Shown here in pieces: positions 6,921-60,769 of a stretch of 64,000 nucleotides of DNA (position 1 is the first letter of the stretch; each line of letters opens with the position of its first letter). Below the pieces are notes generated by a model. The model was not told the origin of the DNA, ran no database searches, and saw only the letters and a list, made by a program, of their open reading frames with translations. Origin of the DNA: an uncultured Bacilli bacterium (GTDB taxonomy: Bacteria > Bacillota_I > Bacilli_A > RF39 > UBA660); NCBI GenBank assembly GCA_947632735.1, contig CANRQG010000001.1:3903-67902 (forward strand). The letters run 5' to 3'. The position numbers and the translations under genes were made by a program.

Positions 6921-9025
6921 TCTGAAATAACGAAGTTATAAGTAACCCCATTGCAACTTGTTACCTCGCTGCCAAATGTTATACAGTTACTAGGCGAATT
7001 ATCGTGACATCCTACAATTGAACCAGTACTCATACCAGTTTCCTTTTCCCCAACAATATTTACCTTAACACCTGGATAATTTTCCTCGAAGAACTTTTGA
7101 TAAATAGACTTTGCTTTTTCAAAAGAAGCGCTACCACCTATCTCATTAAGTACATTATTTAATCTTCTATCAATTTTATCGGTCATTTTTACACAAGGCT
7201 TCTCTTCTTCTTTACTACTACCACTACTGCTACTAGAACCACTAGAACTACTACTAGAGCTACCAGAACTACCAGGATTCTTTCCCTTACTAATAGTAAT
7301 CGTAATTGTCGTATTAGCTGATATTTCACTACCAGCACTAATTGATTGACTAATTACCGCATTCTCTTTAACAGAATTACTATACTTGTAAACAAACGAA
7401 TACTTTAAACCTAACTTATCTAATTTTTCCTCTGCTTGACTCTTCGTAAGACCATCTAAAGCTGGTACCTTAACTGCCTCTCCATCCGAAATAGTAACAA
7501 TAACAACATCATCATTCTTAATGACATCGCCTGTCTTATAAGAATAGCTTATTATTTCACCAATTTTAACAGTGCTACTAAATTCGTGCTTCTCTTCATA
7601 TTTTATTTCATACTTATCAGCCCATTCTCTAAACTCCTCATAAGAATTAAACTTCGGCATTTTTAAATTGCCCTTAGAAATAACTATCTTAATCGTCTCA
7701 CCCTGTTCTACTTTATCTCCCTTTTTGTAGTTAGCACTTATAACACTATTAGCTTTAACCTTTTCATCATACTTATCACTAAATTCTAATTTTAATCTAT
7801 TTTCTATTATCCATTCAGTAATCTCACTTACCTTCATCTTCATTAAATCAGGTACTTCAATCTCCTTACCCTTACTAAAAGTAACCTTAACCTTTTCATC
7901 GTCGATTTTAACACTACTTCCCGGCTTTTTATCCTGCTTCATTGCCAAGTTTCTCTTAATTTTCTCTGAAAAATCTCGGTCAAACTCATAATTAAGATGA
8001 TGCTGTTTCATATAAAACATAACTTCAAATTCCGTTTTATTTGTAAAATCAATTAACTTAACTTCTTCATAACCCAATTCTTCTCCATATGAGAATGTTA
8101 TCTTTAACTCTTCATCCCTTTTCAAATTACCAGCTTTACTTTGCTCAATTACCGTATCAACGGCCTTATCTGATTCCACAAATTCTACAGAAACATTTGA
8201 TAAATAATTTTTATTAACAAAATCTATAACCCTTTCAGTATCCCAAGAAACCATATTCGGAATTATAATCTCCTTACTAGGATTTGGTCCTTCACTAACA
8301 ACAACAGTTAATTCCTTTACTTTCTTAAGACTAGTCCCAGCCTCAACATCTTGAGTAATTATTTCATACTCATCAACCATATCACTATACTCATATTCCT
8401 GCTTTAAAGTTATTTTATTTTTTTCTGCCCATTTCACTACCTCGGTCAAATTTTCATTAGAAAAATCCTTCATTCCCGTCTTAACCGTAGCCTCACTACC
8501 ATTAAGACTTGTATAAATGCCTAAAGTAAAATAAAGACCTAATAATAAAGAAGCAAAAAATACTACTACCTTATTTCTACTCTTAAGTCCGATAGGAACA
8601 AAAAACAACGTAAATAGTATTATCAAAAGTAAACTACCTACATTTATAATATCTAACTCATCCTTATTTAAATATAAATGAAGTAAAAAGAAACCAACCC
8701 CTAAAAGTAAAACAAAACACAAGAAAAAGTTTACAAAAATACGACTTCCTTTTTTAGTCTCCATATGTTTATCCTCTTTAACATTATTTACTTCTTCTTT
8801 TATAACTTTATTCTTACCTGAAGACTTTTTTTCCACAAATTCTGTTGATAATTCATTTTCATCAAAAATATCTTTTTCTTTTTCCACCGGTTTATCTAAC
8901 TCTTTTTCCTTAGAAACATCTTCTAAAGCTGCCTTTTTCTTTTTACCACTATTTTTCTTACTTCTATATTCCGTTTGTCTAACCACATCGGTATTTTTCT
9001 TTTTTGCCAACTTTAACACCTCCAT
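6917..9025 (-). CDS. Membrane-anchored PASTA-repeat protein. Lys-rich cytoplasmic N-terminus, one TM, four to five PASTA-like domains, poly-Ser linker and an unknown Cys-containing C-terminal domain. No kinase or transpeptidase domain.
   Basis: Repeated ~65-aa units ending ...G..V..G..I.IxISKG (e.g. VKANSVISANYKKGDKVEQGETIKIVISKGN) typical of PASTA. TM segment FVNFFLCFVLLLGVGFFLLHLYL. Ser/Gly tract SSGSSSSSSSGSSSSSGSS. Confidence 0.5.
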   Translation of the reverse strand: MEVLKLAKKKNTDVVRQTEYRSKKNSGKKKKAALEDVSKEKELDKPVEKEKDIFDENELSTEFVEKKSSGKNKVIKEEVNNVKEDKHMETKKGSRIFVNFFLCFVLLLGVGFFLLHLYLNKDELDIINVGSLLLIILFTLFFVPIGLKSRNKVVVFFASLLLGLYFTLGIYTSLNGSEATVKTGMKDFSNENLTEVVKWAEKNKITLKQEYEYSDMVDEYEIITQDVEAGTSLKKVKELTVVVSEGPNPSKEIIIPNMVSWDTERVIDFVNKNYLSNVSVEFVESDKAVDTVIEQSKAGNLKRDEELKITFSYGEELGYEEVKLIDFTNKTEFEVMFYMKQHHLNYEFDRDFSEKIKRNLAMKQDKKPGSSVKIDDEKVKVTFSKGKEIEVPDLMKMKVSEITEWIIENRLKLEFSDKYDEKVKANSVISANYKKGDKVEQGETIKIVISKGNLKMPKFNSYEEFREWADKYEIKYEEKHEFSSTVKIGEIISYSYKTGDVIKNDDVVIVTISDGEAVKVPALDGLTKSQAEEKLDKLGLKYSFVYKYSNSVKENAVISQSISAGSEISANTTITITISKGKNPGSSGSSSSSSSGSSSSSGSSKEEEKPCVKMTDKIDRRLNNVLNEIGGSASFEKAKSIYQKFFEENYPGVKVNIVGEKETGMSTGSIVGCHDNSPSNCITFGSEVTSCNGVTYNFVISE

Positions 9026-49034: not shown

Positions 49035-49257
49035 CGAAAGCAAGTGCGAAAGACGGAATATTTTGGAATTTAAAGAGAGCTTGTGTTTGGTGTAAACAAG
49101 TAAGGAAGAAATATTTAGATCACTTTCAAGTTGCGATTTATGGATAAGATAAATACGATTAAACACGTTATAGTTTACAAAAGATAAGTTATTACTTATG
49201 AATTAAGGTGGTACCACGAACTATTCGTCCTTACTAGGATGAATGGTTTTTATTTTT
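49035..49257 (+). promoter_or_regulatory. T-box riboswitch leader (probable Ile specifier AUC) with terminator and antiterminator
   Basis: AATTAAGGTGGTACCACG at 49201-49218 matches the T-box consensus AATTAGGGTGGTACCGCG 16/18. Terminator AUUCGUCC-uuacua-GGAUGAAU plus a U-run at 49223-49257. AGAGAG distal motif and a ...uagAUCAc... candidate specifier upstream. Promoter TTGTCA at 49001. Confidence 0.6.
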
Positions 49258-49271
49258 TGAAAGGAGAATTT

Positions 49272-50222
49272 ATGTTAATAAATATAATTTTATTGATATT
49301 GGGGTTCGTAATTTTAATAAAAGGTGCCGACTTCTTTGTTGATGGAGCTAGCTCAGTTGCCCAAAACTTTAAAGTGTCAAAGATGTTAATAGGTTTAACT
49401 ATTGTAGCTTTTGGTACCTCTCTTCCTGAGTTCGCTGTTAGTGTAAAATCCATACTCTTAAAAAGCGGCGATTTAGTTTTAGGCAATGTAATAGGTAGTA
49501 ATATCTTAAATATTTTACTTATTTTAGGCTTATCAGCAATGTTTCATCCACTTACTGTAAAAAATAATACTGTAAAAAAAGAACTTCCGATAGCAATGCT
49601 AATTACTGTTCTTTTCGCTATTTTATTATCTGATAATATTTTTAATACAAAGGTTTTTAATGAATTCACAAGAAGTGATGGCCTTATTTTACTCTTATTC
49701 TTTACCGTATTTATCTATTATCTTATAAGTATGCTTCGTAATAAAGTTGCAAACTCTGAAAGTAAATCACCTTTGTCTTTACAAAAAGCCATTGCTTTTA
49801 CAGTTCTAGGTATCATTGCTATTATGTTTGGTAGTAGTATGGTCGTTAATCATTCTACACAACTAGCCCGTCTTTTAGGCGTAAGTGAAAGAATGATAGC
49901 TTTAACTATCGTTGCCCTAGGAACTTCTTTACCAGAGTTAGTAACATCCTTGACGGCTACAAAAAAAGGCGAATATGATATCGCTATCGGAAACGTTGTT
50001 GGAAGTAACATTTTCAATATTGGTATTGTTATTGGACTACCGATAGCCTTATTTGGTGGAGTCTCAAACATAACCTTTAGCTATATTGATATTGTTACTA
50101 TGATTTTATCAGCTATACTTTTATTTATGTTTTCCTTTAATGATTATAAAATATCTAAAAAAGAGGGACTCATCTTTCTTTTACTATTCATTAGCTACTA
50201 TGGCTATGTAATTTTCGCTTAG
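49272..50222 (+). CDS. Ca2+/cation antiporter (CaCA/YrbG family), copy 1
   Basis: Two alpha-repeat motifs GTSLPEL and GNVIGSNIFNI. RBS aaggag. Confidence 0.75.
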   Translation: MLINIILLILGFVILIKGADFFVDGASSVAQNFKVSKMLIGLTIVAFGTSLPEFAVSVKSILLKSGDLVLGNVIGSNILNILLILGLSAMFHPLTVKNNTVKKELPIAMLITVLFAILLSDNIFNTKVFNEFTRSDGLILLLFFTVFIYYLISMLRNKVANSESKSPLSLQKAIAFTVLGIIAIMFGSSMVVNHSTQLARLLGVSERMIALTIVALGTSLPELVTSLTATKKGEYDIAIGNVVGSNIFNIGIVIGLPIALFGGVSNITFSYIDIVTMILSAILLFMFSFNDYKISKKEGLIFLLLFISYYGYVIFA

Positions 50223-50230
50223 GAGGAATT

Positions 50231-51184
50231 ATGCTTTTAAAAACAACACTCCTTATTATAGGATTTATTATTTTAATAAAAGGTGCTGACATTTTAATTG
50301 ATGGAGCAAGTTCCATTGCGACCAAATTCAAAGTATCCAAACTCTTAATAGGACTTACCATAGTCAATTTAGGAACAGGGGCTCCTGAGTTAGCCATAGG
50401 TTTTAAAGCCATTCTCTCCGGAAATGGCGATATCGTCTTAGGTAATGTAATAGGCAGTAATATCTTAAATATTCTCCTGATAGTTGGTGTATCATCATTA
50501 TTTAGAAGTATCACCGTTAGAAGTAGTACCGTAAAAAAAGAATTACCAATTGCCCTTTTAATAACTCTCCTTTTTTCACTTCTTATTTCTGATAATCTTT
50601 TTGATTCAAGTATGGTAAATAGTTTTACTAGACGTGAGGGAATAATCCTTATTCTCTTCTTCTCGATATTTATTTATTATTTATTTACGATGTATCATAA
50701 TAAAATTGATGAAGACCAAGAAACTATATCTGTTTTTTCCAATAAAAGAAGTATCATTTATATAATATTAGGAATAATTTGTGTTATTTTAGGTAGTAAC
50801 TTAGTAGTAGATAACGCTGTTAGTCTAGCTCAAAAAATAGGTATTTCTGAAAGAATAATTGCTCTAACCATCATAGCTTTAGGCACATCTCTTCCAGAAT
50901 TAGTAACGTCAATAACTGCTACTAAAAAAGGTGAATTTGATATAGCCATAGGTAATATTGTAGGAAGTAATATCTATAACATCGGACTTGTCCTAGGTTT
51001 ACCAGTTGCATTGTTTGGAACTATCACAAACATAACTGTTAATTATATTGACGTTGCTACAATGATTTTATCAGCTATATTACTTTATATGTTTTCTTTT
51101 AATGATTACAAAATTACTAAAAAAGAAGGTATTGTCTTTCTCTTCTTATTCGCAATTTACTATGCATATATAATTTTTTTCTAA
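50231..51184 (+). CDS. Ca2+/cation antiporter (CaCA/YrbG family), copy 2 (tandem paralog)
   Basis: Same architecture; about 55% identical pattern to copy 1. Confidence 0.75.
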   Translation: MLLKTTLLIIGFIILIKGADILIDGASSIATKFKVSKLLIGLTIVNLGTGAPELAIGFKAILSGNGDIVLGNVIGSNILNILLIVGVSSLFRSITVRSSTVKKELPIALLITLLFSLLISDNLFDSSMVNSFTRREGIILILFFSIFIYYLFTMYHNKIDEDQETISVFSNKRSIIYIILGIICVILGSNLVVDNAVSLAQKIGISERIIALTIIALGTSLPELVTSITATKKGEFDIAIGNIVGSNIYNIGLVLGLPVALFGTITNITVNYIDVATMILSAILLYMFSFNDYKITKKEGIVFLFLFAIYYAYIIFF

Positions 51185-51203
51185 ATGAAAGTAGGTGTAT
51201 TTT

Positions 51204-54200
51204 ATGAAATTTAAAAAATTAGAACAAGGAAAAATCAATGAAATTGAAGAAAAATTTACTAAAGAATGGGATAAAGTAGATATTTACACAAAAACTGTGG
51301 AAAACAGAAAAAATAATGATACTTTTGTCTTTTATGATGGTCCAGCAACCGCTAACGGTATGCCAGGAATTCATCACACTTTAGCTAAACTTTTAAAAGA
51401 CACTATCTGTAAATATAAAACTATGCAGGGTTATAAAGTTATTAGAAAAGTAGGGTGGGATACCCACGGTTTACCAGTAGAAGTTCAAGTCGAAAAAGAA
51501 TTGAATTTTACTAGTAAAAATGATATTGAAGAGTACGGCATAAAAGAATTTAACCAAAAATGTCGTGAAAGTGTTTGGAAAAATGAAGAATACTTTACTA
51601 AATTTACCAAGCAAATGGGCCAGTTCATTGACCTAGAACATCCTTATATTACTTATAATAATGACTATATCGAAACAGAATGGTGGATTTTAAAGAAAAT
51701 CTTTGATGATGGCTATATTTATAATGGTCTAAAAATAGTTCCTTGGTGCCCAAGATGCGGTACCGGTCTTGCTTCCCACGAAGTAGCTCAAGGCTATAAA
51801 GAAATATCCGTTAATACCGTTTATGTCCCATTCAAATTAAAAAACGAAGAAAATACTTACTTCCTAGTTTGGACAACTACTCCCTGGACACTAATCTCTA
51901 ATGTCGCTTTATGTGTAAACCCTAATGAGACATATGTCAAATGTGCGTCAAAACGTTATAACTTCATTGTTGTAAAAGCCTTAGCTGACTCTATTCTAGG
52001 AACCGACTATGAAGTAGTAGAAGAGTATAAAGGTAAAGATTTAGAATTTGTTGAGTATGAACAATTAATGCCTTTTCTAAAGACCGACAAAAAAGGCTTC
52101 TATGTAACTTGTGACAATTACGTAACAACAGAAGATGGTACTGGTATTGTTCATATAGCTCCAGCTTTTGGTCAAGATGACTATGAAGTGGGCTTAAAAT
52201 ATAATTTACCTGTTTTAAACCCTGTAGGTGAAGATGGCTGCTACACAGAAGGTCCGTGGAAAGGTCGTTTAGTTGTTGACCCTGAATTAGAACTTGACAT
52301 AATTAAATACTTAGCCAGTGAAGATAAACTCTTTAAAAAACAAAAGATAAATCACGATTATCCACATTGTTGGAGATGTAAAACACCACTAGTTTATTAT
52401 TCAAAACCATCTCTATATATAAAAACTACAGCTAAAAAAGATGAAATTATCGCTGAAAATAAAAAAATCGCTTGGCATCCCGATTATGTCGGTGAAAAAA
52501 GATTTGAAAACTGGCTTCAAAATATGAATGATTGGGCTATTTCTCGTAACCGTTATTGGGGTTGTCCAATTCCTCTTTGGAAATGTGAATGTGGCAATGA
52601 AATAATGATAGGCTCTCGTGAAGAATTAAAGAACTTAGCCATAGAAGAAGTAAAAGATGACTTAGATTTACATCGCCCATATGTAGATGATATTCATATT
52701 GAATGTCCAAAATGTCATAAGAAAATGACTAGAATTCCTGATGTCATTGATTGCTGGTTTGACTCTGGTTCAATGCCTTTTGCACAGTATCATTACCCAT
52801 TTGAAAATAAAGAACTTTTTGAAAGCCAATTCCCAGCTGATTTTATAGCCGAGGGAATAGACCAAACAAGAGGTTGGTTCTATGCTCTTTTAGTAATCTC
52901 TACCTTTATTACCGGCCAAACACCATATAAAAATGTTTTAGTAAACGATTTATTACTAGATAAATATGGTCAAAAAATGCATAAGTCTCGTGGTAATACC
53001 GTAAGTCCCTTTGAAATTATGGAAAAATATGGCGCTGATACCGTAAGATTTTATATGCTATACGCATCTCCTGTTTGGACTCCTTTAAAATTTGATGAAG
53101 ACGGTGTCAAAGAAATTTATTCAAAATATATCTCCACTTTTAAAAATGCCTATTCATTCTTCGAAATGTATGCTAATGCCGATGATATAGACCCAAGAAC
53201 CTATAATATTCCTGTAAAAAACCGTCCTTTAATTGACCGTTGGCTAATTTCTAAATTAAATAAATTAATAAAAGAAGTAAATAATGCTTTCTTAGAATAT
53301 GATTTAAATAAAGTTGCCAAATTAATAGTGCCATTTTTAAATGATGACTTATCTAATTGGTATATTAGAAGTAATAGAAGACGTTTTTGGGATAGTGAAT
53401 TAACTGAATCTAAAAAATGTGTTTATCTAACTACCTATGAAGTATTAATTGAATTATGCAAATTATGTGCTCCATTAACGCCATTCTTAACTGAAGAAAT
53501 ATATCAAAAATTAACAAATGAAAAATCCGTTCATCTAGCTAATTATCCAATTGAAAATGACGATTTAATCGATGAGGCAACTGAAGAAAAAATGGACTTA
53601 GTAAGAGACATTTGCTCCCTAGGACGTTTTGCTAGAGAAGAAGCTAATATCAAAGTACGTCAACCAATAAGTAGCCTAATCTTACCAAAAAGTGATGAAC
53701 TTATCATCGGTAATTTACTACCAATTATCAAAGAAGAATTAAACGTCAAAGAAATCGTCTTCAAAGAAGATATGAGTGATTATCTAGAATATGTTGTAAA
53801 ACCAAACTTTAAAGTACTAGGAAAAACACTAGGTCCAAGAATTAAACTACTTCAAGAAGTATTAAATAATTTATCCAGCAAAGATGTTGCCAAAATATCT
53901 GAAGATGGTTTAACAATTAGTCTTGGTGGTGATGATTACACAATTACCGAAGATATGGTACTTATAACTCTAAAACAAAAAGAAGGCTATGCTTCAACAT
54001 CTAATAACAAAACTTGCGTTGTTCTAGATACAGAATTAACAGAAGATTTAATATTAGAAGGCTTAGCCCGTGAATTTGTTCGTAAAGTTCAATCCCTTCG
54101 TAAAGAAGCTGACTTCGTAATAACTGACCATATCAAAGTTTACTATAATGGCTCTGATAAAATAAAAAAGATGCTAGAAAAATATCAAGATTATGTTATG

Positions 54201-54299
54201 AATGAAGTCCTAGGTGATGAACTAATAGAAGATAAAAAACTAGACAATATGGAATCTTTAAATGATGAAAAAGCTTCTATTAAAGTCGAAAAAATCTAA
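51204..54299 (+). CDS. ileS: Isoleucine--tRNA ligase, type 2 (eukaryote-like, ~1030 aa form)
   Basis: HIGH-region variant (PGIHH), CP1 editing domain, KMSKS-equivalent KMHKSRGN, long C-terminal extension without the type-1 Zn finger. Confidence 0.85.
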   Translation: MKFKKLEQGKINEIEEKFTKEWDKVDIYTKTVENRKNNDTFVFYDGPATANGMPGIHHTLAKLLKDTICKYKTMQGYKVIRKVGWDTHGLPVEVQVEKELNFTSKNDIEEYGIKEFNQKCRESVWKNEEYFTKFTKQMGQFIDLEHPYITYNNDYIETEWWILKKIFDDGYIYNGLKIVPWCPRCGTGLASHEVAQGYKEISVNTVYVPFKLKNEENTYFLVWTTTPWTLISNVALCVNPNETYVKCASKRYNFIVVKALADSILGTDYEVVEEYKGKDLEFVEYEQLMPFLKTDKKGFYVTCDNYVTTEDGTGIVHIAPAFGQDDYEVGLKYNLPVLNPVGEDGCYTEGPWKGRLVVDPELELDIIKYLASEDKLFKKQKINHDYPHCWRCKTPLVYYSKPSLYIKTTAKKDEIIAENKKIAWHPDYVGEKRFENWLQNMNDWAISRNRYWGCPIPLWKCECGNEIMIGSREELKNLAIEEVKDDLDLHRPYVDDIHIECPKCHKKMTRIPDVIDCWFDSGSMPFAQYHYPFENKELFESQFPADFIAEGIDQTRGWFYALLVISTFITGQTPYKNVLVNDLLLDKYGQKMHKSRGNTVSPFEIMEKYGADTVRFYMLYASPVWTPLKFDEDGVKEIYSKYISTFKNAYSFFEMYANADDIDPRTYNIPVKNRPLIDRWLISKLNKLIKEVNNAFLEYDLNKVAKLIVPFLNDDLSNWYIRSNRRRFWDSELTESKKCVYLTTYEVLIELCKLCAPLTPFLTEEIYQKLTNEKSVHLANYPIENDDLIDEATEEKMDLVRDICSLGRFAREEANIKVRQPISSLILPKSDELIIGNLLPIIKEELNVKEIVFKEDMSDYLEYVVKPNFKVLGKTLGPRIKLLQEVLNNLSSKDVAKISEDGLTISLGGDDYTITEDMVLITLKQKEGYASTSNNKTCVVLDTELTEDLILEGLAREFVRKVQSLRKEADFVITDHIKVYYNGSDKIKKMLEKYQDYVMNEVLGDELIEDKKLDNMESLNDEKASIKVEKI

Positions 54300-54317
54300 A
54301 AAAATGTAACTGTCAAG

Positions 54318-54350
54318 AAAAGAAAGAATATCCTAAATTCTTTCTTTTCT
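54318..54350 (+). terminator. Rho-independent terminator after ileS
   Basis: GAAAGAA-tatcctaaa-TTCTTTC with a T-run. Confidence 0.5.
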
Positions 54351-54391: not shown

Positions 54392-54664
54392 ATGGATATT
54401 GATTTTTCAAAAATAAATGATATATATGGAAAAGATATTTTATATTCCTGTGGAGAAAACTTTGATGATTTAGTAGAAAATATCACTATATTAAAAAAAC
54501 TAGGTATTGAAAATATCTATGAAGTAGTAGAACGCTATCCCTTACTATTTTTAGACGATTCCAAAGATTTTAGCTCTAAAATAAATAATTTTTTCCTACA
54601 CCTTGGTACAAACTATAAAGAAATACTTGAAAATAATATGACTTTATGGGAGGAACTATTATGA
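54392..54664 (+). CDS. Small mTERF-like repeat protein
   Basis: LKKLGIENIYEVVERYPLLFLDDSKDF resembles an mTERF repeat unit (...LG.s...i..iv.r.P.ll..s.e...). Confidence 0.3.
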   Translation: MDIDFSKINDIYGKDILYSCGENFDDLVENITILKKLGIENIYEVVERYPLLFLDDSKDFSSKINNFFLHLGTNYKEILENNMTLWEELL

Positions 54665-56376
54665 ATGAATATGACCTAGTAAAACTTTTTTTAAAATATC
54701 ATATTGACTATGAAAGTCTAAAAGAAATAACTATTACTAATGATATTAACAATTTAGAAGAAATATTAAGATATCTAATTAATGAAAAAAAGATAAGTCC
54801 CAAAAATTTAGCCAAATCTCCCAGCATTTTTAATACCAAAAGTATCACAATAAAAGATAACTTTTCCTTCTTAGAAGAAGTAAATTTAAAAAAAGCCCTA
54901 AGTAATTGTCTCCACGTTTTAAATACCAATAATGACAAATTAAAAGAAACCTATTACTATGTCCTAGAAAATTACGGTCCAAGTTATCTTGAAAAAATAA
55001 CTTCTATTTTAAGTGTTCCTGTTGAAAGAATTAAATTAATCGAATTATCTTTTAGTGATACTTTATCTAAAGAAAACATCCTAAGTGCCGCTACTAGTAA
55101 ATTTGATATATTCGATTTAACCAAAATAATTAATACCTGCATAAATGAAAAAATAAAAATACTACCAACTGTTTTTCTAAGAAATTCCGATGAAATAAAA
55201 GCTCTTTCAACCATCTGTCATCAGAAAAAAGTATCTCTAAATACTACTATGTTTCATCGTAGTCCTGATGAAGTAGAACAAATTATAAACTTTTGCCAAG
55301 AAAATTCTCTTGCTATACTAGGAGCTTACTTCTTAAGAAAACCTGATGAAGTAGAAGAAATAATTAATATTACCAAAAATATTTCCGACAAGCCTCTTAG
55401 TCTAGCTTTCAATAGAACTCCTAGTGAAGTAAAAGATATTATCAAAATCTGCCAAGAAGAACAAACACCTCTTACTTCCAATATGTTTTTACGTACTCCC
55501 GACGAAGTCAAAAAAATAATTAAACTATGTCAAAAAGAAAATATTCCCCTAACAGGTAGCCATTTCCAACAACCTTACCAAGACTTTGAAGATATCCTTG
55601 GCTATTGTCAAGAAAATAATCTTAATCTAACAGCGTCAATGCTTTTTCGTAAAAAAGACGAAATATCTTCCATTAGAAGTTTTTGCAACGAAAAAAATCT
55701 TCCTATCTATGAAACTATGTATAAAAGAACACCTAGTGAAGTAGAAGAAATTTTTAATTACTGTTCAAAAAATAATCTTTCCATAACACCAAATCTCTTT
55801 AGAAAAAAGCCCCACGAAACCACAACCATCATAACTACTTGTAAAAATTTAAAACTACCACCATCATCAGTAGTATTTAAAAGAACCCCTGATGAAATAA
55901 TTGATATAACTAGTATCTTTTTAAAATATTTTAAAACCCTTCCGATAAAAAATGCCTTTAATCAAAAACCAAAAGAAGTAGAAGATATAATAAAACTTTG
56001 CCTTAGCAAAAATATCGCAATAACAGGTACTCTTTTTCAAAAAAAAGCCCCAAGTATCAAAGATTCTATTGATTACTTAGAAAAAAATTACGGAGAAAAA
56101 TATTTAAAACCACTAATTATTATCAAAGACAAAAACCATCTAGCTAAAGTTTTTCCTCTCCTTGATAGCTTAGGCGTTCTAGATATCGTCATAAATAGTC
56201 CCAGTATTTTAACATTAACCGAAGAAGAAATAAAAGATAGAATTGCTTTTTTAGATAGAATAAATGAAAATATCGTTGTAGGAGAAACCTTTAATTCCCT
56301 TTTTGGCTTATCTAGAAAAAATTATCTTCTCCGAGTAGAAAAAGAAAATAATAAAGAAGGAGCCTTAACACTATGA
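54661..56376 (+). CDS. Tandem-repeat protein built of ~36-aa units (F.R.PDEV..II..C.....L.), mTERF-like
   Basis: At least 10 consecutive units, e.g. FLRNSDEIKALSTICHQKKVSLNTTM / FHRSPDEVEQIINFCQENSLAILGAY / FLRKPDEVEEIINITKN... / FNRTPSEVKDIIKICQEEQTPLTSNM / FLRTPDEVKKIIKLCQKENIPLTGSH. Confidence 0.35.
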   Translation: MNEYDLVKLFLKYHIDYESLKEITITNDINNLEEILRYLINEKKISPKNLAKSPSIFNTKSITIKDNFSFLEEVNLKKALSNCLHVLNTNNDKLKETYYYVLENYGPSYLEKITSILSVPVERIKLIELSFSDTLSKENILSAATSKFDIFDLTKIINTCINEKIKILPTVFLRNSDEIKALSTICHQKKVSLNTTMFHRSPDEVEQIINFCQENSLAILGAYFLRKPDEVEEIINITKNISDKPLSLAFNRTPSEVKDIIKICQEEQTPLTSNMFLRTPDEVKKIIKLCQKENIPLTGSHFQQPYQDFEDILGYCQENNLNLTASMLFRKKDEISSIRSFCNEKNLPIYETMYKRTPSEVEEIFNYCSKNNLSITPNLFRKKPHETTTIITTCKNLKLPPSSVVFKRTPDEIIDITSIFLKYFKTLPIKNAFNQKPKEVEDIIKLCLSKNIAITGTLFQKKAPSIKDSIDYLEKNYGEKYLKPLIIIKDKNHLAKVFPLLDSLGVLDIVINSPSILTLTEEEIKDRIAFLDRINENIVVGETFNSLFGLSRKNYLLRVEKENNKEGALTL

Positions 56377-56804
56377 AAGATCCGGAGTTTATTGCCTTAA
56401 GAAATAAATTCTTCTTAAATGTCCTAATCGCAACTATTTTCATAATACCTATAACTATCCTTATCTTTAATAAATTTTCAAATCCCAAACCAGAACTTTT
56501 AAAAAACATTGAACAAGAAAAGAACTTAATCATATTTCTAACTGAAAACAATTGTCAAAAATGCCATTCACTTAAAAATACCCTAAATAATAATAACATT
56601 TCTTACTTTGAACTAAACAAAGATAAAGATTCTTATTTTGAAGAAATTATGTTGAAAATAGAAATGCCTTCTAATTATGCCTTAGCTCCTGGTATTATTT
56701 ATATCGAAAAAGGTAAAATGCTCGCTAACAAAGTTGAACTAAAAAACAGTAATGACCTTGAGACCTTTCTTTCTAGCCTCAATTTAATAAAAGGAAGTGA
56801 TTAA
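56373..56804 (+). CDS. Membrane-anchored thioredoxin-fold-like protein (CxxC)
   Basis: N-terminal TM, CQKC motif; weak. Confidence 0.3.
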   Translation: MKDPEFIALRNKFFLNVLIATIFIIPITILIFNKFSNPKPELLKNIEQEKNLIIFLTENNCQKCHSLKNTLNNNNISYFELNKDKDSYFEEIMLKIEMPSNYALAPGIIYIEKGKMLANKVELKNSNDLETFLSSLNLIKGSD

Positions 56805-58858: not shown

Positions 58859-59365
58859 ATGATAAATAAACAAAATTTATGGTTTTTAACATTATTTACA
58901 TTAATATTAGTCCTTAGTATTTACTATGTAACAATGCCCAATGATTTATTAGTAGAAGCCATAAAAAAAGAACCAAAAACAGAAACTAAAGCCGAAGCCA
59001 AAGATACTATTGAAGAAGTATCCAGTTTAGTCGCAATGCGAGTTAGCCTAGAAGAAGAAAGACAAACCGTAATGGACGAGCTACAAGAAAAGTTAACAAA
59101 TGATGAAACAACTAGTGAAGAAAAAAATAACGCTTATGAACAACTAAAATACCTAAATGAAGTTCAGGGAAAAGAAGAAGCAATTGAAAAGAAAATAAAA
59201 AAAGAATATAATCTTGATTGCTTTGTCAAAATAGACAATAATAATGCCAATTGTGTTTGTGTATCATCAAAGCACGACAATACCTTAGCAAATAACATCA
59301 TGCGTCTTATACAAGAAAATTATAAAAATAAAATGTACACAACCGTTAAATTCCAAAAATCTTAA
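58859..59365 (+). CDS. SpoIIIAH-like protein
   Basis: N-terminus MINKQNLWFLTLFTLILVLSIYYV resembles B. subtilis SpoIIIAH MLKKQTVWLLTML...LSVYYI. Acidic linker and C-terminal domain. Confidence 0.45.
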   Translation: MINKQNLWFLTLFTLILVLSIYYVTMPNDLLVEAIKKEPKTETKAEAKDTIEEVSSLVAMRVSLEEERQTVMDELQEKLTNDETTSEEKNNAYEQLKYLNEVQGKEEAIEKKIKKEYNLDCFVKIDNNNANCVCVSSKHDNTLANNIMRLIQENYKNKMYTTVKFQKS

Positions 59366-59427
59366 AATAGGTAAAAACATACAACTAATTTTTAACTTTT
59401 CATACAATACTTTAGGTGATAAGAAAA

Positions 59428-59634
59428 ATGGCAAATAATATATTAACGCCTCGTGAACGAAAAATCTTTGAGCTTTTAATAGATAATATGAGTACAAAAC
59501 AAATAGCTTTAGAACTAGGTATTAGTGAAAAGACGGTTCGTAATCATATATCAAACGTTATGCAAAAACTTGGAGTTAATGGTCGAGCAGGAGCTGTTGT
59601 TGAATTGTTAAAACTTAAAGAATTATCCATCTAA
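59428..59634 (+). CDS. gerE: GerE-like LuxR-type HTH transcriptional regulator
   Basis: LTPRERKIFELL...TKQIALELGISEKTVRNHISNVMQKLGVNGRAGAVVELLKL; near-identical motif string to B. subtilis GerE (ISEKTVRNHISNAMQKLGV). Confidence 0.75.
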   Translation: MANNILTPRERKIFELLIDNMSTKQIALELGISEKTVRNHISNVMQKLGVNGRAGAVVELLKLKELSI

Positions 59635-59662
59635 AACGTACTAAAAAAGTGCGTTTTTTCAT
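59635..59662 (+). terminator. Rho-independent terminator after gerE
   Basis: AACGTAC-taaaaaa-GTGCGTT with a T6 run. Confidence 0.45.
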
Positions 59663-59682
59663 ATACTTTTTTAGGTGATAAA

Positions 59683-60627
59683 ATGCTTAGAACAAGAGCC
59701 TTAAAAAAAATATTCATAACAACACTTTCAATGTTTATTTTATTAACTGTTTTTTCTTTACCAACATTTAAAAAAGAAACTGTTTTAAGGACAAATCTTG
59801 AAGTAGAAGAAAAAACTACTCTAAAAACCAATAGTATCTATCTATTAAATAAAGATAATTATTTAGTAAAAACCAAAATATTTATAGAAGCAACTGATAA
59901 AGAAGATAAGATTAGAGAAATCCTTAATAATTTAATTATAAAAAAAAATAATAAATTACCAACTGGCTTAAGTGGCACTATTCCAAGTGAAACTACTGTT
60001 CAAGAAGTAATTGTTAATAAGGATATAGTTACTATTGATTTTTCTAAAGAAATATTAAAAGTACAAGAATCTTTAGAAAAGCAAATGATTACTTCAATAG
60101 TTTATAGTCTTTTAGAATTAAAAGACCTAAAAGGTGTAATTGTTCTAGTTAATGGTAATACATTACTAGAATATCCTAATTCTAAAGAAAAGCTTCCATC
60201 TATCTTAGATAAGAAAATTGGTATTAATAATAAATATTTATTAACATCCCGGGATAATATCTCTAAAGTTGTTATCTATTACTTAGAAGATATAGAAGAA
60301 AATCTTTACTACGTGCCTGTTACAAAATACATAAATGATAACCGTGACAAGATAAAAATTATAATTGAAGAGTTAACTACCAATTATATTTATGAGCCTA
60401 ATCTTATGAGTTTTTTAGATAATAAAGTTGAACTACTTGATTATCACGAAGAAAATGATGTCTTATTTCTAAACTTCAATGATTATTTATATAATAGTAA
60501 AGATAAAATTTTAGAAGAAGTTTTATATAGTATTGCTTATTCTGTCTTTGACAATTATAACGTTAATATGGTTATGTTTGAAGTTAATGAAAAAGAAGTA
60601 AAATATATTTCAAAAAAAGACATTTAA
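59683..60627 (+). CDS. GerM-like protein with two GerMN domains (sporulation/germination)
   Basis: Signal/lipoprotein-like N-terminus. Segment ...IREILNNLI...LPTGLSGTIPSETTVQEVIVNKDIVTIDFSKE fits the GerMN pattern. Confidence 0.45.
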   Translation: MLRTRALKKIFITTLSMFILLTVFSLPTFKKETVLRTNLEVEEKTTLKTNSIYLLNKDNYLVKTKIFIEATDKEDKIREILNNLIIKKNNKLPTGLSGTIPSETTVQEVIVNKDIVTIDFSKEILKVQESLEKQMITSIVYSLLELKDLKGVIVLVNGNTLLEYPNSKEKLPSILDKKIGINNKYLLTSRDNISKVVIYYLEDIEENLYYVPVTKYINDNRDKIKIIIEELTTNYIYEPNLMSFLDNKVELLDYHEENDVLFLNFNDYLYNSKDKILEEVLYSIAYSVFDNYNVNMVMFEVNEKEVKYISKKDI

Positions 60628-60692: not shown

Positions 60693-60769
60693 TGGTGTCC
60701 GCGAGGCGACTCGAACGCCTGACCGATCGCTTAGAAGGCGATTGCTCTATCCAGCTGAGCTACGCAGAC
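60693..60769 (-). tRNA. tRNA-Arg (anticodon UCU)
   Basis: The reverse complement GTCTGCGTAGCTCAGCTGGATAGAGCAATCGCCTTCTAAGCGATCGGTCAGGCGTTCGAGTCGCCTCGCGGACACCA folds as a cloverleaf. Acceptor stem GUCUGCG/CGCGGAC, anticodon loop CUUCUAA, encoded CCA. A consensus promoter TTGAAA-17-TATAAT lies on the minus strand at about 60792-60820. Confidence 0.85.

What the first reader, a model, noticed from the sequence alone, without database searches (positions are those of the whole stretch)
54392..56376. Two adjacent bacterial proteins built from mTERF-like ~36-aa tandem repeats
- The 576-aa ORF contains at least 10 consecutive units of the form F(L/H/N)R.P(D/S)EV(E/K).II..C(Q)E(N)…L.
- The DNA shows the corresponding ~108-bp tandem periodicity (e.g. 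cctgatgaagtagaacaaattataaac… / cctgatgaagtagaagaaataattaat… / cccgacgaagtcaaaaaaataattaaa…).
- The upstream 91-aa ORF carries one similar unit (LKKLGIENIYEVVERYPLLFLDDSKDF).
- The unit resembles mitochondrial transcription termination factor (mTERF) repeats, which are nucleic-acid-binding solenoids rarely reported in bacteria.
- The genes sit immediately downstream of ileS behind a terminator.
Basis: partly seen in the sequence, partly recalled or inferred. Interest (0 to 1): 0.6.

Follow-up and report, generated by a model that had tools for sequence, protein, structure and literature searches.

The report
Bacterial mTERF-like repeat protein pair
Just after ileS, an uncultured gut Bacilli genome carries two overlapping genes: a 571-residue helical solenoid (mTERF-type ends around twelve 26-residue TALE-like units) and a 90-residue acidic mini-mTERF partner, which together are most likely a modular nucleic-acid-binding system of a kind reported only once before in bacteria.

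Summary
The repeats are real, but the period is 26 aa (78 nt), not ~36 aa (108 nt). There are 12 consecutive units plus one partial unit. The true genes are 54392-54664 (90 aa) and 54661-56376 (571 aa), joined by a 4-nt overlap.

The central units have two helices and no detectable sequence relative in the PDB. Their variation concentrates at positions 3 and 7, which flank the inter-helix turn.

Arrays change by whole units between strains. One allele of this very gene lacks exactly 5 units, and a human-gut relative has alleles of 3 to 18 units.

The pair is an accessory cassette, present in 5 and absent in 17 syntenic relatives. The small partner sits next to the large gene in either gene order.

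Best reading: a modular nucleic-acid-binding solenoid with a partner protein. It is a new architectural variant of the prokaryotic mTERF-like idea published as pTERF in 2024. Binding itself is inferred, not shown.

The parts
54316..54350 (+). Terminator-like hairpin after ileS: a perfect 14-bp stem with a 7-nt loop and a U-rich 3' arm, but no separate U-tract.
   Evidence: MFE -15.4 kcal/mol, z = -5.46, and 0 of 200 shuffles fold as well. The consensus scan missed it because the stem has fewer than 3 G-C pairs.
54392..54664 (+). Small gene: a 90-aa acidic protein (pI 4.3, net charge -10), all-helical, with a mini-mTERF fold. It is the conserved partner of the large gene.
54661..56376 (+). Large gene: a 571-aa alpha-solenoid. 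Its start overlaps the small gene's stop by ATGA, and its stop overlaps the next gene's start by ATGA.
   Evidence: AlphaFold mean pLDDT 91.1, all-helical. Family size: 470 representative clusters at E <= 1e-3.
54661..55092 (+). N-terminal cap: three to four three-helix motifs of ~30 aa of mTERF type, with the conserved blocks IEKCPSILY, CLHILS, NYG and SILSVP.
   Evidence: Secondary structure. Alignment A2. Profile against PDB: the top 11 hits are all mTERF.
55093..55170 (+). Partial transitional unit (long helix only) that links the cap to the array.
   Evidence: HMM positions 10-26 match aa 159-175.
55171..56109 (+). Array of 12 tandem units of 26 aa (one is 27 aa). Each unit is a 5-residue helix, a turn, a 13-residue helix and an extended linker. 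Phe2, Ile12 and Cys16 are conserved. Positions 3 and 7 are hypervariable.
56110..56373 (+). C-terminal cap: about two three-helix mTERF-type motifs, a small hairpin and a terminal helix.
   Evidence: Alignment A7. Profile against PDB: all 11 hits are mTERF, MTERF4 E 6.5e-4.
56373..56804 (+). Neighbour, not part of the cassette: a 143-aa membrane-anchored thioredoxin/glutaredoxin-like protein (CxxC). It belongs to the conserved backbone ileS-trx-SDR-Met-gamma-lyase and its start overlaps the large gene's stop.
   Evidence: weak thioredoxin-fold matches; it is present directly after ileS in relatives that lack the cassette.

Best explanation
Proposed mechanism:
- The 571-aa protein is a cytoplasmic superhelical alpha-solenoid. 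Both ends are genuine, distant mTERF motifs. The centre is an array of 12-13 shortened two-helix units of 26 aa.
- By analogy with MTERF1, TALEs and the tested bacterial pTERF1/2, it most likely wraps a nucleic-acid duplex, probably dsDNA, with roughly one unit per base (pair).
- Sequence would be read through the hypervariable residue at unit position 3, helped by position 7. Position 3 sits between the invariant Phe2 and the conserved Arg/Lys4, at the turn between the short and long helices. This is topologically where the TALE RVD loop lies.
- Specificity would change by gain, loss and shuffling of whole units.
- The 90-aa acidic mini-mTERF protein is made from the same message and acts with the large protein, for example as an end cap, or as a regulator that occupies the binding groove.

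Shown versus inferred: the fold, the homology of the caps, the unit anatomy, the pattern of variation and the gene linkage are shown. Nucleic-acid binding, the one-unit-per-base code, the role of the partner and the biological purpose are inferred.
For: Fold and homology:
- Confident model, pLDDT 91, all-helical.
- Three independent sequence profiles (whole protein, N-cap, C-cap) retrieve almost exclusively mTERF proteins from 177,635 PDB sequences.

Modularity:
- The period is 26 aa. Related subtypes with 28-, 29- and 30-aa units share the same caps.
- Position 3 is among the four most variable positions in 9 of 9 proteins or groups tested, and position 7 comes second.
- In one human-gut species, unit pairs differ in amino acid at codon 3 in 80% of pairs and at codon 7 in 68%. 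Codons 1, 2, 12, 16, 19, 21, 24 and 25 never change amino acid, although 24-50% of pairs carry synonymous differences at codons 1, 16 and 19.

Array turnover:
- P0002 is a 441-aa allele of this very gene, 438/441 identical, with one in-frame deletion of 130 aa, which is exactly 5 units.
- Alleles of 3, 9, 10, 11, 14, 17 and 18 units occur in loci whose flanks are 96-99.7% identical.
- The same-locus gene in a sister species is 40% identical, against 87% for IleS.

Partner:
- A small-family gene lies next to 47 of 79 complete large genes, upstream in 40 and downstream in 7. Where gene calls are available the two genes overlap by 4 nt or, in one locus, 8 nt.
- Its own model matches mTERF folds.

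Precedent: pTERF1 and pTERF2, tandem mTERF-like proteins from gut Bacillota MAGs, bind specific dsDNA with nM affinity (PMC11417379).
Against: - No binding data exist for this family.
- The protein is not markedly basic: pI 7.8 overall and 8.6 for the array, while relatives range from 5.1 to 9.1.
- The unit consensus is rich in Glu.
- The central units have no sequence similarity to any known nucleic-acid-binding repeat.
- I had no model coordinates, so I could not check that positions 3 and 7 face the superhelix axis.
- The similarity to TALEs is geometric and TM-scores are low (0.2-0.4).
- No candidate target sequence was identified.
- Gene neighbourhoods are ordinary housekeeping genes and give no functional pointer.
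Confidence: 0.5

Rival explanations
1. RNA-directed factor of the MTERF3/MTERF4 type. In this reading the solenoid binds structured RNA (rRNA or tRNA) or recruits an RNA-modifying enzyme, and acts in ribosome biogenesis or RNA maturation rather than on DNA.
Against: A conserved RNA target fits poorly with strain-level alleles of 3 to 18 units, a 5-unit deletion allele, presence in only 5 of 22 syntenic relatives and 40% identity to the same-locus gene in a sister species. In small, gene-dense genomes such neighbours are expected by chance.
Confidence: 0.15
2. A protein-binding scaffold, or a fast-evolving recognition module of a conflict system (for example a sensor or decoy for phage proteins), with no nucleic-acid binding. 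In this reading the solenoid surface binds proteins, as HEAT, ARM or TPR arrays do.
For: The protein has near-neutral to acidic charge in many relatives. It shows extreme allelic turnover, tandem paralogue arrays (six family ORFs in L004, four in L030) and patchy presence, all of which are typical of conflict genes. The site after ileS holds other accessory ORFs in relatives.
Against: There is no match to defence families (PADLOC), phage families, phage genomes or plasmids. No effector or enzymatic domain is present. The only structural relatives are nucleic-acid binders, and no HEAT, ARM or TPR fold scores comparably. Variation is focused on one or two residues per unit at an inter-helix turn, rather than spread over a surface.
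Confidence: 0.25
3. It is simply a member of the already published pTERF family, and so already known.
For: It shares the habitat and phylum (gut Bacillota MAGs), the same idea of tandem mTERF-like repeats, and a variable unit number. Some loci found here come from the same ruminant MAG collection (the RGIG isolates).
Against: pTERF1 is catalogued with a 35-aa period and three helices per unit, and mTERF motifs are annotated within its repeats. Here the units are 26 aa with two helices, and no mTERF model matches them. None of 65 relatives of at least 300 aa (among the listed best 150 and the first-search hits) has a 35-aa period. The pTERF section read mentions no partner gene.
Confidence: 0.25
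4. Artefact: a low-complexity, AT-rich ORF with chance periodicity, not a functional gene.
For: The genome is 28% G+C. The repeats attract many spurious short Pfam hits.
Against: Hundreds of conserved homologues share the caps. Scaffold codons show purifying selection. The structure prediction is confident. Coupling to the partner gene is conserved.
Confidence: 0.01

Closest known systems
Eukaryotic mTERF family (MTERF1-4; Pfam PF02536, SMART SM00733)
   Same: The caps of the large protein, and the whole small protein, consist of ~30-aa three-helix motifs with the P/H-x-I-L signature. Profiles of both caps retrieve mTERF proteins from the PDB. Both models match mTERF folds best.
   Different: The proteins are bacterial and cytoplasmic. 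No PF02536 match was seen (none at E <= 10 for this protein; not among the 25 most-matched families in 50 relatives). Most of the protein is a tandem array of shortened two-helix 26-aa units that mTERFs lack. Unit number varies between strains. A separate mini-mTERF partner gene is present.
pTERF, prokaryotic mTERF-like proteins (Nucleic Acids Res 2024;52:10464, PMC11417379)
   Same: These are tandem-repeat, mTERF-like helical proteins from gut Bacillota MAGs with a variable unit number. They were proposed, and for pTERF1/2 shown, to bind specific dsDNA.
   Different: pTERF has a 35-aa period and three helices per unit, with mTERF motifs annotated inside the repeats. Here the period is 26 aa with two helices per unit, and the mTERF signal lies only in the caps. 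The pTERF section read mentions neither a partner gene nor allelic unit shuffling.
TALE and TALE-like proteins (AvrBs3/PthXo1, dHax3, BurrH/BAT)
   Different: There is no significant sequence similarity. The units are 26 aa rather than 33-35 aa and much more diverged from each other. The caps are mTERF-type. There is no secretion signal or eukaryotic effector domain. The host is a gut Bacilli rather than a plant pathogen or endosymbiont.

Membership tests
mTERF (PF02536 / SM00733) | Match to the family's curated profile at or above threshold. | tested here: not met
   No PF02536 hit for either protein even at E <= 10. PF02536 is not among the 25 families most often matched by 50 relatives.
mTERF (PF02536 / SM00733) | Detectable sequence homology to bona fide mTERF proteins. 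| tested here: met
   This holds for the caps of the large protein only. Whole-protein profile: all 5 hits are mTERF, best E 5.3e-4. N-cap profile: the top 11 hits are all mTERF, best E 1.6e-4. C-cap profile: all 11 hits are mTERF, best E 6.5e-4. It is not met for the central units or for the small protein.
mTERF (PF02536 / SM00733) | Motif of ~30 aa made of two alpha-helices plus a short third helix, stacked into a superhelix. | tested here: met
mTERF (PF02536 / SM00733) | Binds nucleic acid (dsDNA or rRNA). | not testable with these tools
   This needs EMSA, SELEX or CLIP.
pTERF (PMC11417379) | Tandem units of ~35 aa, three helices each, 3-11 units. | tested here: not met
   The period is 26 aa and 78 nt, with two helices per unit. 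Periods in the family are 26, 28, 29 or 30 aa and never 35. The pTERF period comes from the catalogue ID TR_35_C32_2.
pTERF (PMC11417379) | Sequence homology to pTERF1 (MBQ3414883.1). | not testable with these tools
   The sequence is not in the text held. Supplementary Table S11 was truncated.
TALE / TALE-like | 33-35-aa repeats with an RVD at positions 12-13, and sequence similarity to the TAL repeat. | tested here: not met
   The units are 26 aa. TALEs appear only as non-significant sequence hits (E 0.04-0.3), and none appears for the array profile.
TALE / TALE-like | Two-helix units forming a superhelix, with one hypervariable site per unit at the inter-helix loop. | tested here: inconclusive
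   There is a fold match, and hypervariable position 3 lies at the helix-turn boundary. Orientation towards the superhelix axis could not be checked without coordinates.

The most novel reading that the evidence does not exclude
This is a previously undescribed natural class of programmable nucleic-acid-binding repeat. It would be the shortest helical unit known to me for that role (26 aa, against 30-38 aa for mTERF, TALE, PPR, PUF and OPR, from my own recollection). One or two specificity residues per unit (positions 3 and 7) would read the target. The array is framed by ancestral mTERF caps and works with a dedicated mini-mTERF partner. Gut Bacilli would re-target it between strains by shuffling units. 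It would also be bacterial evidence that mTERF motifs are not a eukaryotic invention.
Probability: 0.3. Interest if true: 0.8.

Novelty: new variant of a known kind. Interest (0 to 1): 0.6.

Why it matters
- Recent literature still describes mTERF proteins as absent from prokaryotes (PMC12977773). Only one study, on pTERF in 2024, claims a bacterial counterpart. This locus adds a second, architecturally distinct bacterial lineage. Its caps are detectably homologous to mTERF by sequence, which bears on where the mTERF fold came from.
- The central array is a compact 26-aa module. It has a clear scaffold, one or two hypervariable positions, and natural alleles that differ by whole units. That is the raw material that made TALEs and PPRs engineerable.
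- If binding follows a code, this would be a smaller building block for designer DNA or RNA binders.
- The conserved acidic partner protein would point to a built-in regulator, which neither TALEs nor the pTERF section I read are described as having.

Tried and rejected
- Tandem Repeats Finder on the DNA found nothing, because the units are too diverged.
- Pfam and NCBIfam gave only spurious short repeated matches (FAD_binding_4, SAP_new25, Ribosomal_S10 and others). Each covers about 17-25 residues of a unit and reflects a common 'EEI..ICKENNI' helix pattern. I rejected them.
- PADLOC, PHROGs and phage genomes gave nothing real. The one plasmid hit, in Microcystis, lies on the strand opposite the annotated gene, so I rejected it.
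- The first genome-contig scan, with the large protein as query, found no relative. The alignment A1 was too diverged to seed a scan. An IleS query then gave the syntenic relatives.
- The afdb50 Foldseek library was unavailable.
- The small protein showed no mTERF signal in two sequence profiles against the PDB. Profile-profile comparison with the large family gave only a weak hint (E 1.1e-3, probability 21%).
- The pTERF1 sequence could not be obtained from the paper's supplements.
- A charge argument for DNA binding was inconclusive, since family pI ranges from 5.1 to 9.1.
- The neighbourhood survey found only lineage-specific housekeeping contexts: holA/addB, ileS/trx, mutL/miaA and relA.
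- The accessory ORFs at the same site after ileS in L007, L031 and L042 carry no informative domains.

Full report
**What is there.**
- Downstream of ileS (51195-54299) lies a perfect 14-bp hairpin at 54316-54350 (-15 kcal/mol, z = -5.5).
- Three genes with overlapping stop and start codons follow. The first is a 90-aa ORF at 54392-54664. The second is a large ORF whose real start, judged from every homologue, is the ATG at 54661 (571 aa, ending at 56376). The third is a 143-aa thioredoxin-like membrane protein at 56373-56804.
- The window has 28% G+C and the cassette has 27%.
- IleS is 76-89% identical to that of many uncultured 'Bacilli / Tenericutes / Erysipelotrichaceae' MAGs from rabbit, human (Hadza) and ruminant guts. 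The window also carries sporulation genes.

**Checking the observation.**
The period is 26 aa, not ~36 aa.
- At the DNA level, in-frame self-identity peaks at lags 78, 156, 234, 312 and 390 (0.44-0.46, against 0.308 +/- 0.025 elsewhere). Lag 108 is at background.
- Tandem Repeats Finder sees nothing, because the units are only about 35-45% identical.

**Fold and family.**
- Neither protein matches any Pfam or NCBIfam model, and PF02536 is absent even at E <= 10. The weak hits are short, repeated and spurious.
- A word-seeded search found 13 unnamed metagenomic homologues. An exhaustive profile search found 470 representative clusters, 123 of them at E <= 1e-30.
- The alignment shows a conserved N-terminal cap of about 150 aa and a C-terminal cap of about 85 aa, around a repeat region of variable length.
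- AlphaFold gives a confident all-helical solenoid (pLDDT 91.1). The caps are ~30-aa three-helix motifs. Each central unit is a 5-residue helix, a 2-residue turn, a 13-residue helix and a 6-residue linker.
- Sequence profiles give independent support:
  - The whole-protein profile retrieves only mTERF proteins from 177,635 PDB sequences (best E 5.3e-4).
  - The N-cap profile returns mTERFs as its top 11 hits (best E 1.6e-4).
  - The C-cap profile returns 11 hits, all mTERF (best E 6.5e-4).
  - A profile of the central array retrieves nothing meaningful.
- The caps are therefore distant but real mTERF homologues. The central units are a new repeat type at the sequence level, with TALE-like geometry.

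**The small protein.**
- It belongs to a family of at least 165 clusters, all 90-94 aa, unnamed and without Pfam domains. It is strongly acidic (pI ~4.2).
- Sequence evidence for this assignment is lacking. There is only a weak profile-profile hint towards the large protein's N-cap (E 1.1e-3, probability 21%).
- It is genetically tied to the large gene. A small-family gene lies next to 47 of 79 complete large genes, upstream in 40 and downstream in 7. Where gene calls are available the two overlap by 4 nt or, in L087, 8 nt. Linkage that survives a change of gene order argues for a physical or functional partnership.

**Population and evolutionary behaviour.**
- Close relatives share the backbone Na/Ca-exchanger - ileS - trx143 - SDR - Met-gamma-lyase. 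The cassette sits between ileS and trx143 in 5 loci: L005 (99% identical to the window), L019, L021, L034 and L036. It is absent from that exact site in 17. Three further relatives carry other unannotated ORFs there.
- L030 and L035 instead carry large paralogues of 809-1115 aa after ileS, three to four in tandem in L030. L004 has six family ORFs in a row.
- Other lineages carry members at other fixed sites: holA/addB, mutL/miaA, relA, and rRNA methyltransferase/pseudouridine synthase.
- The large protein evolves fast. In the sister species L034, IleS is 87% identical, the small protein 77% and the large protein 40%.
- Arrays change by whole units. P0002 is 438/441 identical to the window protein and lacks exactly 130 aa, which is 5 units.
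- In a human-gut relative, loci with 96-99.7% identical flanks carry alleles of 366, 522, 548, 574, 652, 730 and 756 aa. These correspond to 3, 9, 10, 11, 14, 17 and 18 units, with unit orders such as ABC, ADBBBDEFC and GHIJKLMNOPBBBC.
- Within units, position 3 is among the four most variable positions in all nine proteins or groups examined, and position 7 comes next.
- At the codon level in the gut strain group, amino acids differ at codon 3 in 80% of unit pairs and at codon 7 in 68%. Codons 1, 2, 12, 16, 19, 21, 24 and 25 never change amino acid, although 24-50% of pairs carry synonymous differences at codons 1, 16 and 19.
- In the model, position 3 ends the short helix, the conserved Arg/Lys4 and Thr5 form the turn, and position 7 is in the first turn of the long helix. 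This is the topological place of the TALE RVD loop. That last comparison is my inference.

**Mechanism.**
- The best-supported reading is a modular nucleic-acid-binding solenoid, with dsDNA most likely. mTERF caps would nucleate or terminate the superhelix, and each 26-aa unit would contribute one recognition position.
- The acidic partner would act with it as a cap or regulator.
- The precedent is pTERF1/2, tandem mTERF-like proteins from gut Bacillota MAGs that bind specific dsDNA at nM affinity (PMC11417379).
- Arguments against: no binding data exist, the charge is not basic, no coordinates were available to check residue orientation, and no target is known.
- The main rivals are an RNA or ribosome-biogenesis role like MTERF3/4, and a protein-recognition or conflict module. 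The RNA role is disfavoured by the allelic turnover and patchy presence. The conflict role is compatible with the turnover but unsupported by PADLOC, PHROGs, phage or plasmid searches.

**Comparison with what is known.**
- The family fails the formal Pfam test for mTERF. It passes homology to solved mTERFs and the fold test, for the caps only.
- It differs from pTERF in period (26 against 35 aa) and in helices per unit (2 against 3). It also has a partner gene, which the pTERF section I read does not mention. Direct homology to pTERF1 could not be tested.
- It resembles TALEs in geometry and in how variation is distributed, but not in sequence.
- Literature from 2026 still states that mTERFs are absent from prokaryotes.
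- I therefore rate it a new variant of a known kind. It is moderately to highly interesting. The key claim, programmable nucleic-acid binding, is testable by SELEX on the 571-aa and 441-aa alleles.

Noticed in passing
L103, L146, L161, L163, L152, L141, L122 (large gene starting at ~7905-7998, or 6016 in L146): Human-gut metagenome contigs with 96-99.7% identical flanks carry alleles of one family member with 3, 9, 10, 11, 14, 17 or 18 units (366-756 aa). Unit orders are shuffled, and one near-identical unit is expanded up to tenfold.
   Followed up: yes
P0002 versus window 54661-56376: A 441-aa allele of the window's own gene, from another sample, is 438/441 identical and has one in-frame deletion of exactly five units (aa 230-359).
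   Followed up: yes
L004 112-7335; L030 13510-23094: Tandem paralogue arrays occur in relatives. L004 has six family ORFs in a row, including two ~150-aa mini versions made of one unit plus the C-cap. L030 has four large paralogues (809-1115 aa) after ileS without a small partner.
   Followed up: partly
P0011-P0013, P0039, P0047 (29 aa); P0021, P0042 (28 aa); P0074, P0079, P0149 (30 aa): Family members with the same caps carry central units of 28, 29 or 30 aa and a different consensus (for example ELFTSEVLAHAKLEDIIKIINSEEFRKYP). The cap scaffold therefore hosts several unit types.
   Followed up: partly
window 56373-56804: A 143-aa protein with an N-terminal membrane helix and a CxxC thioredoxin/glutaredoxin-like domain. 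Its start overlaps the large gene's stop by 4 nt. In relatives that lack the cassette it follows ileS directly.
   Followed up: partly
L007 13178-17960; L031 13096-14387; L042 13211-14092: In other relatives the same ileS-trx143 junction holds different unannotated ORFs, one with a LysM domain. The site therefore looks like a hotspot for accessory genes.
   Followed up: partly
window 49239-51184: Two tandem Na+/Ca2+-exchanger paralogues lie immediately upstream of ileS. Only ~10 nt separate the second from the ileS start, so there is no room for a T-box leader, and Rfam finds none.
   Followed up: no
window 58859-60627: Sporulation-related genes (SpoIIIAH-like, a GerE-type regulator, a GerM/Germane-domain protein) occur in a 28% G+C lineage that related records label as Tenericutes or Mollicutes. 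The relative with a complete chromosome has only ~1.3 Mb (L081).
   Followed up: no
L086 5138-8242: In one relative the pair sits in a tight operon between a SAM-dependent methyltransferase (PF10672) and a pseudouridine synthase, with the small gene downstream of the large one.
   Followed up: partly
window 60696-60769 (-): This is the only Rfam match in the 64-kb window: a single tRNA gene on the minus strand. Nearly all long ORFs are on the plus strand.
   Followed up: no
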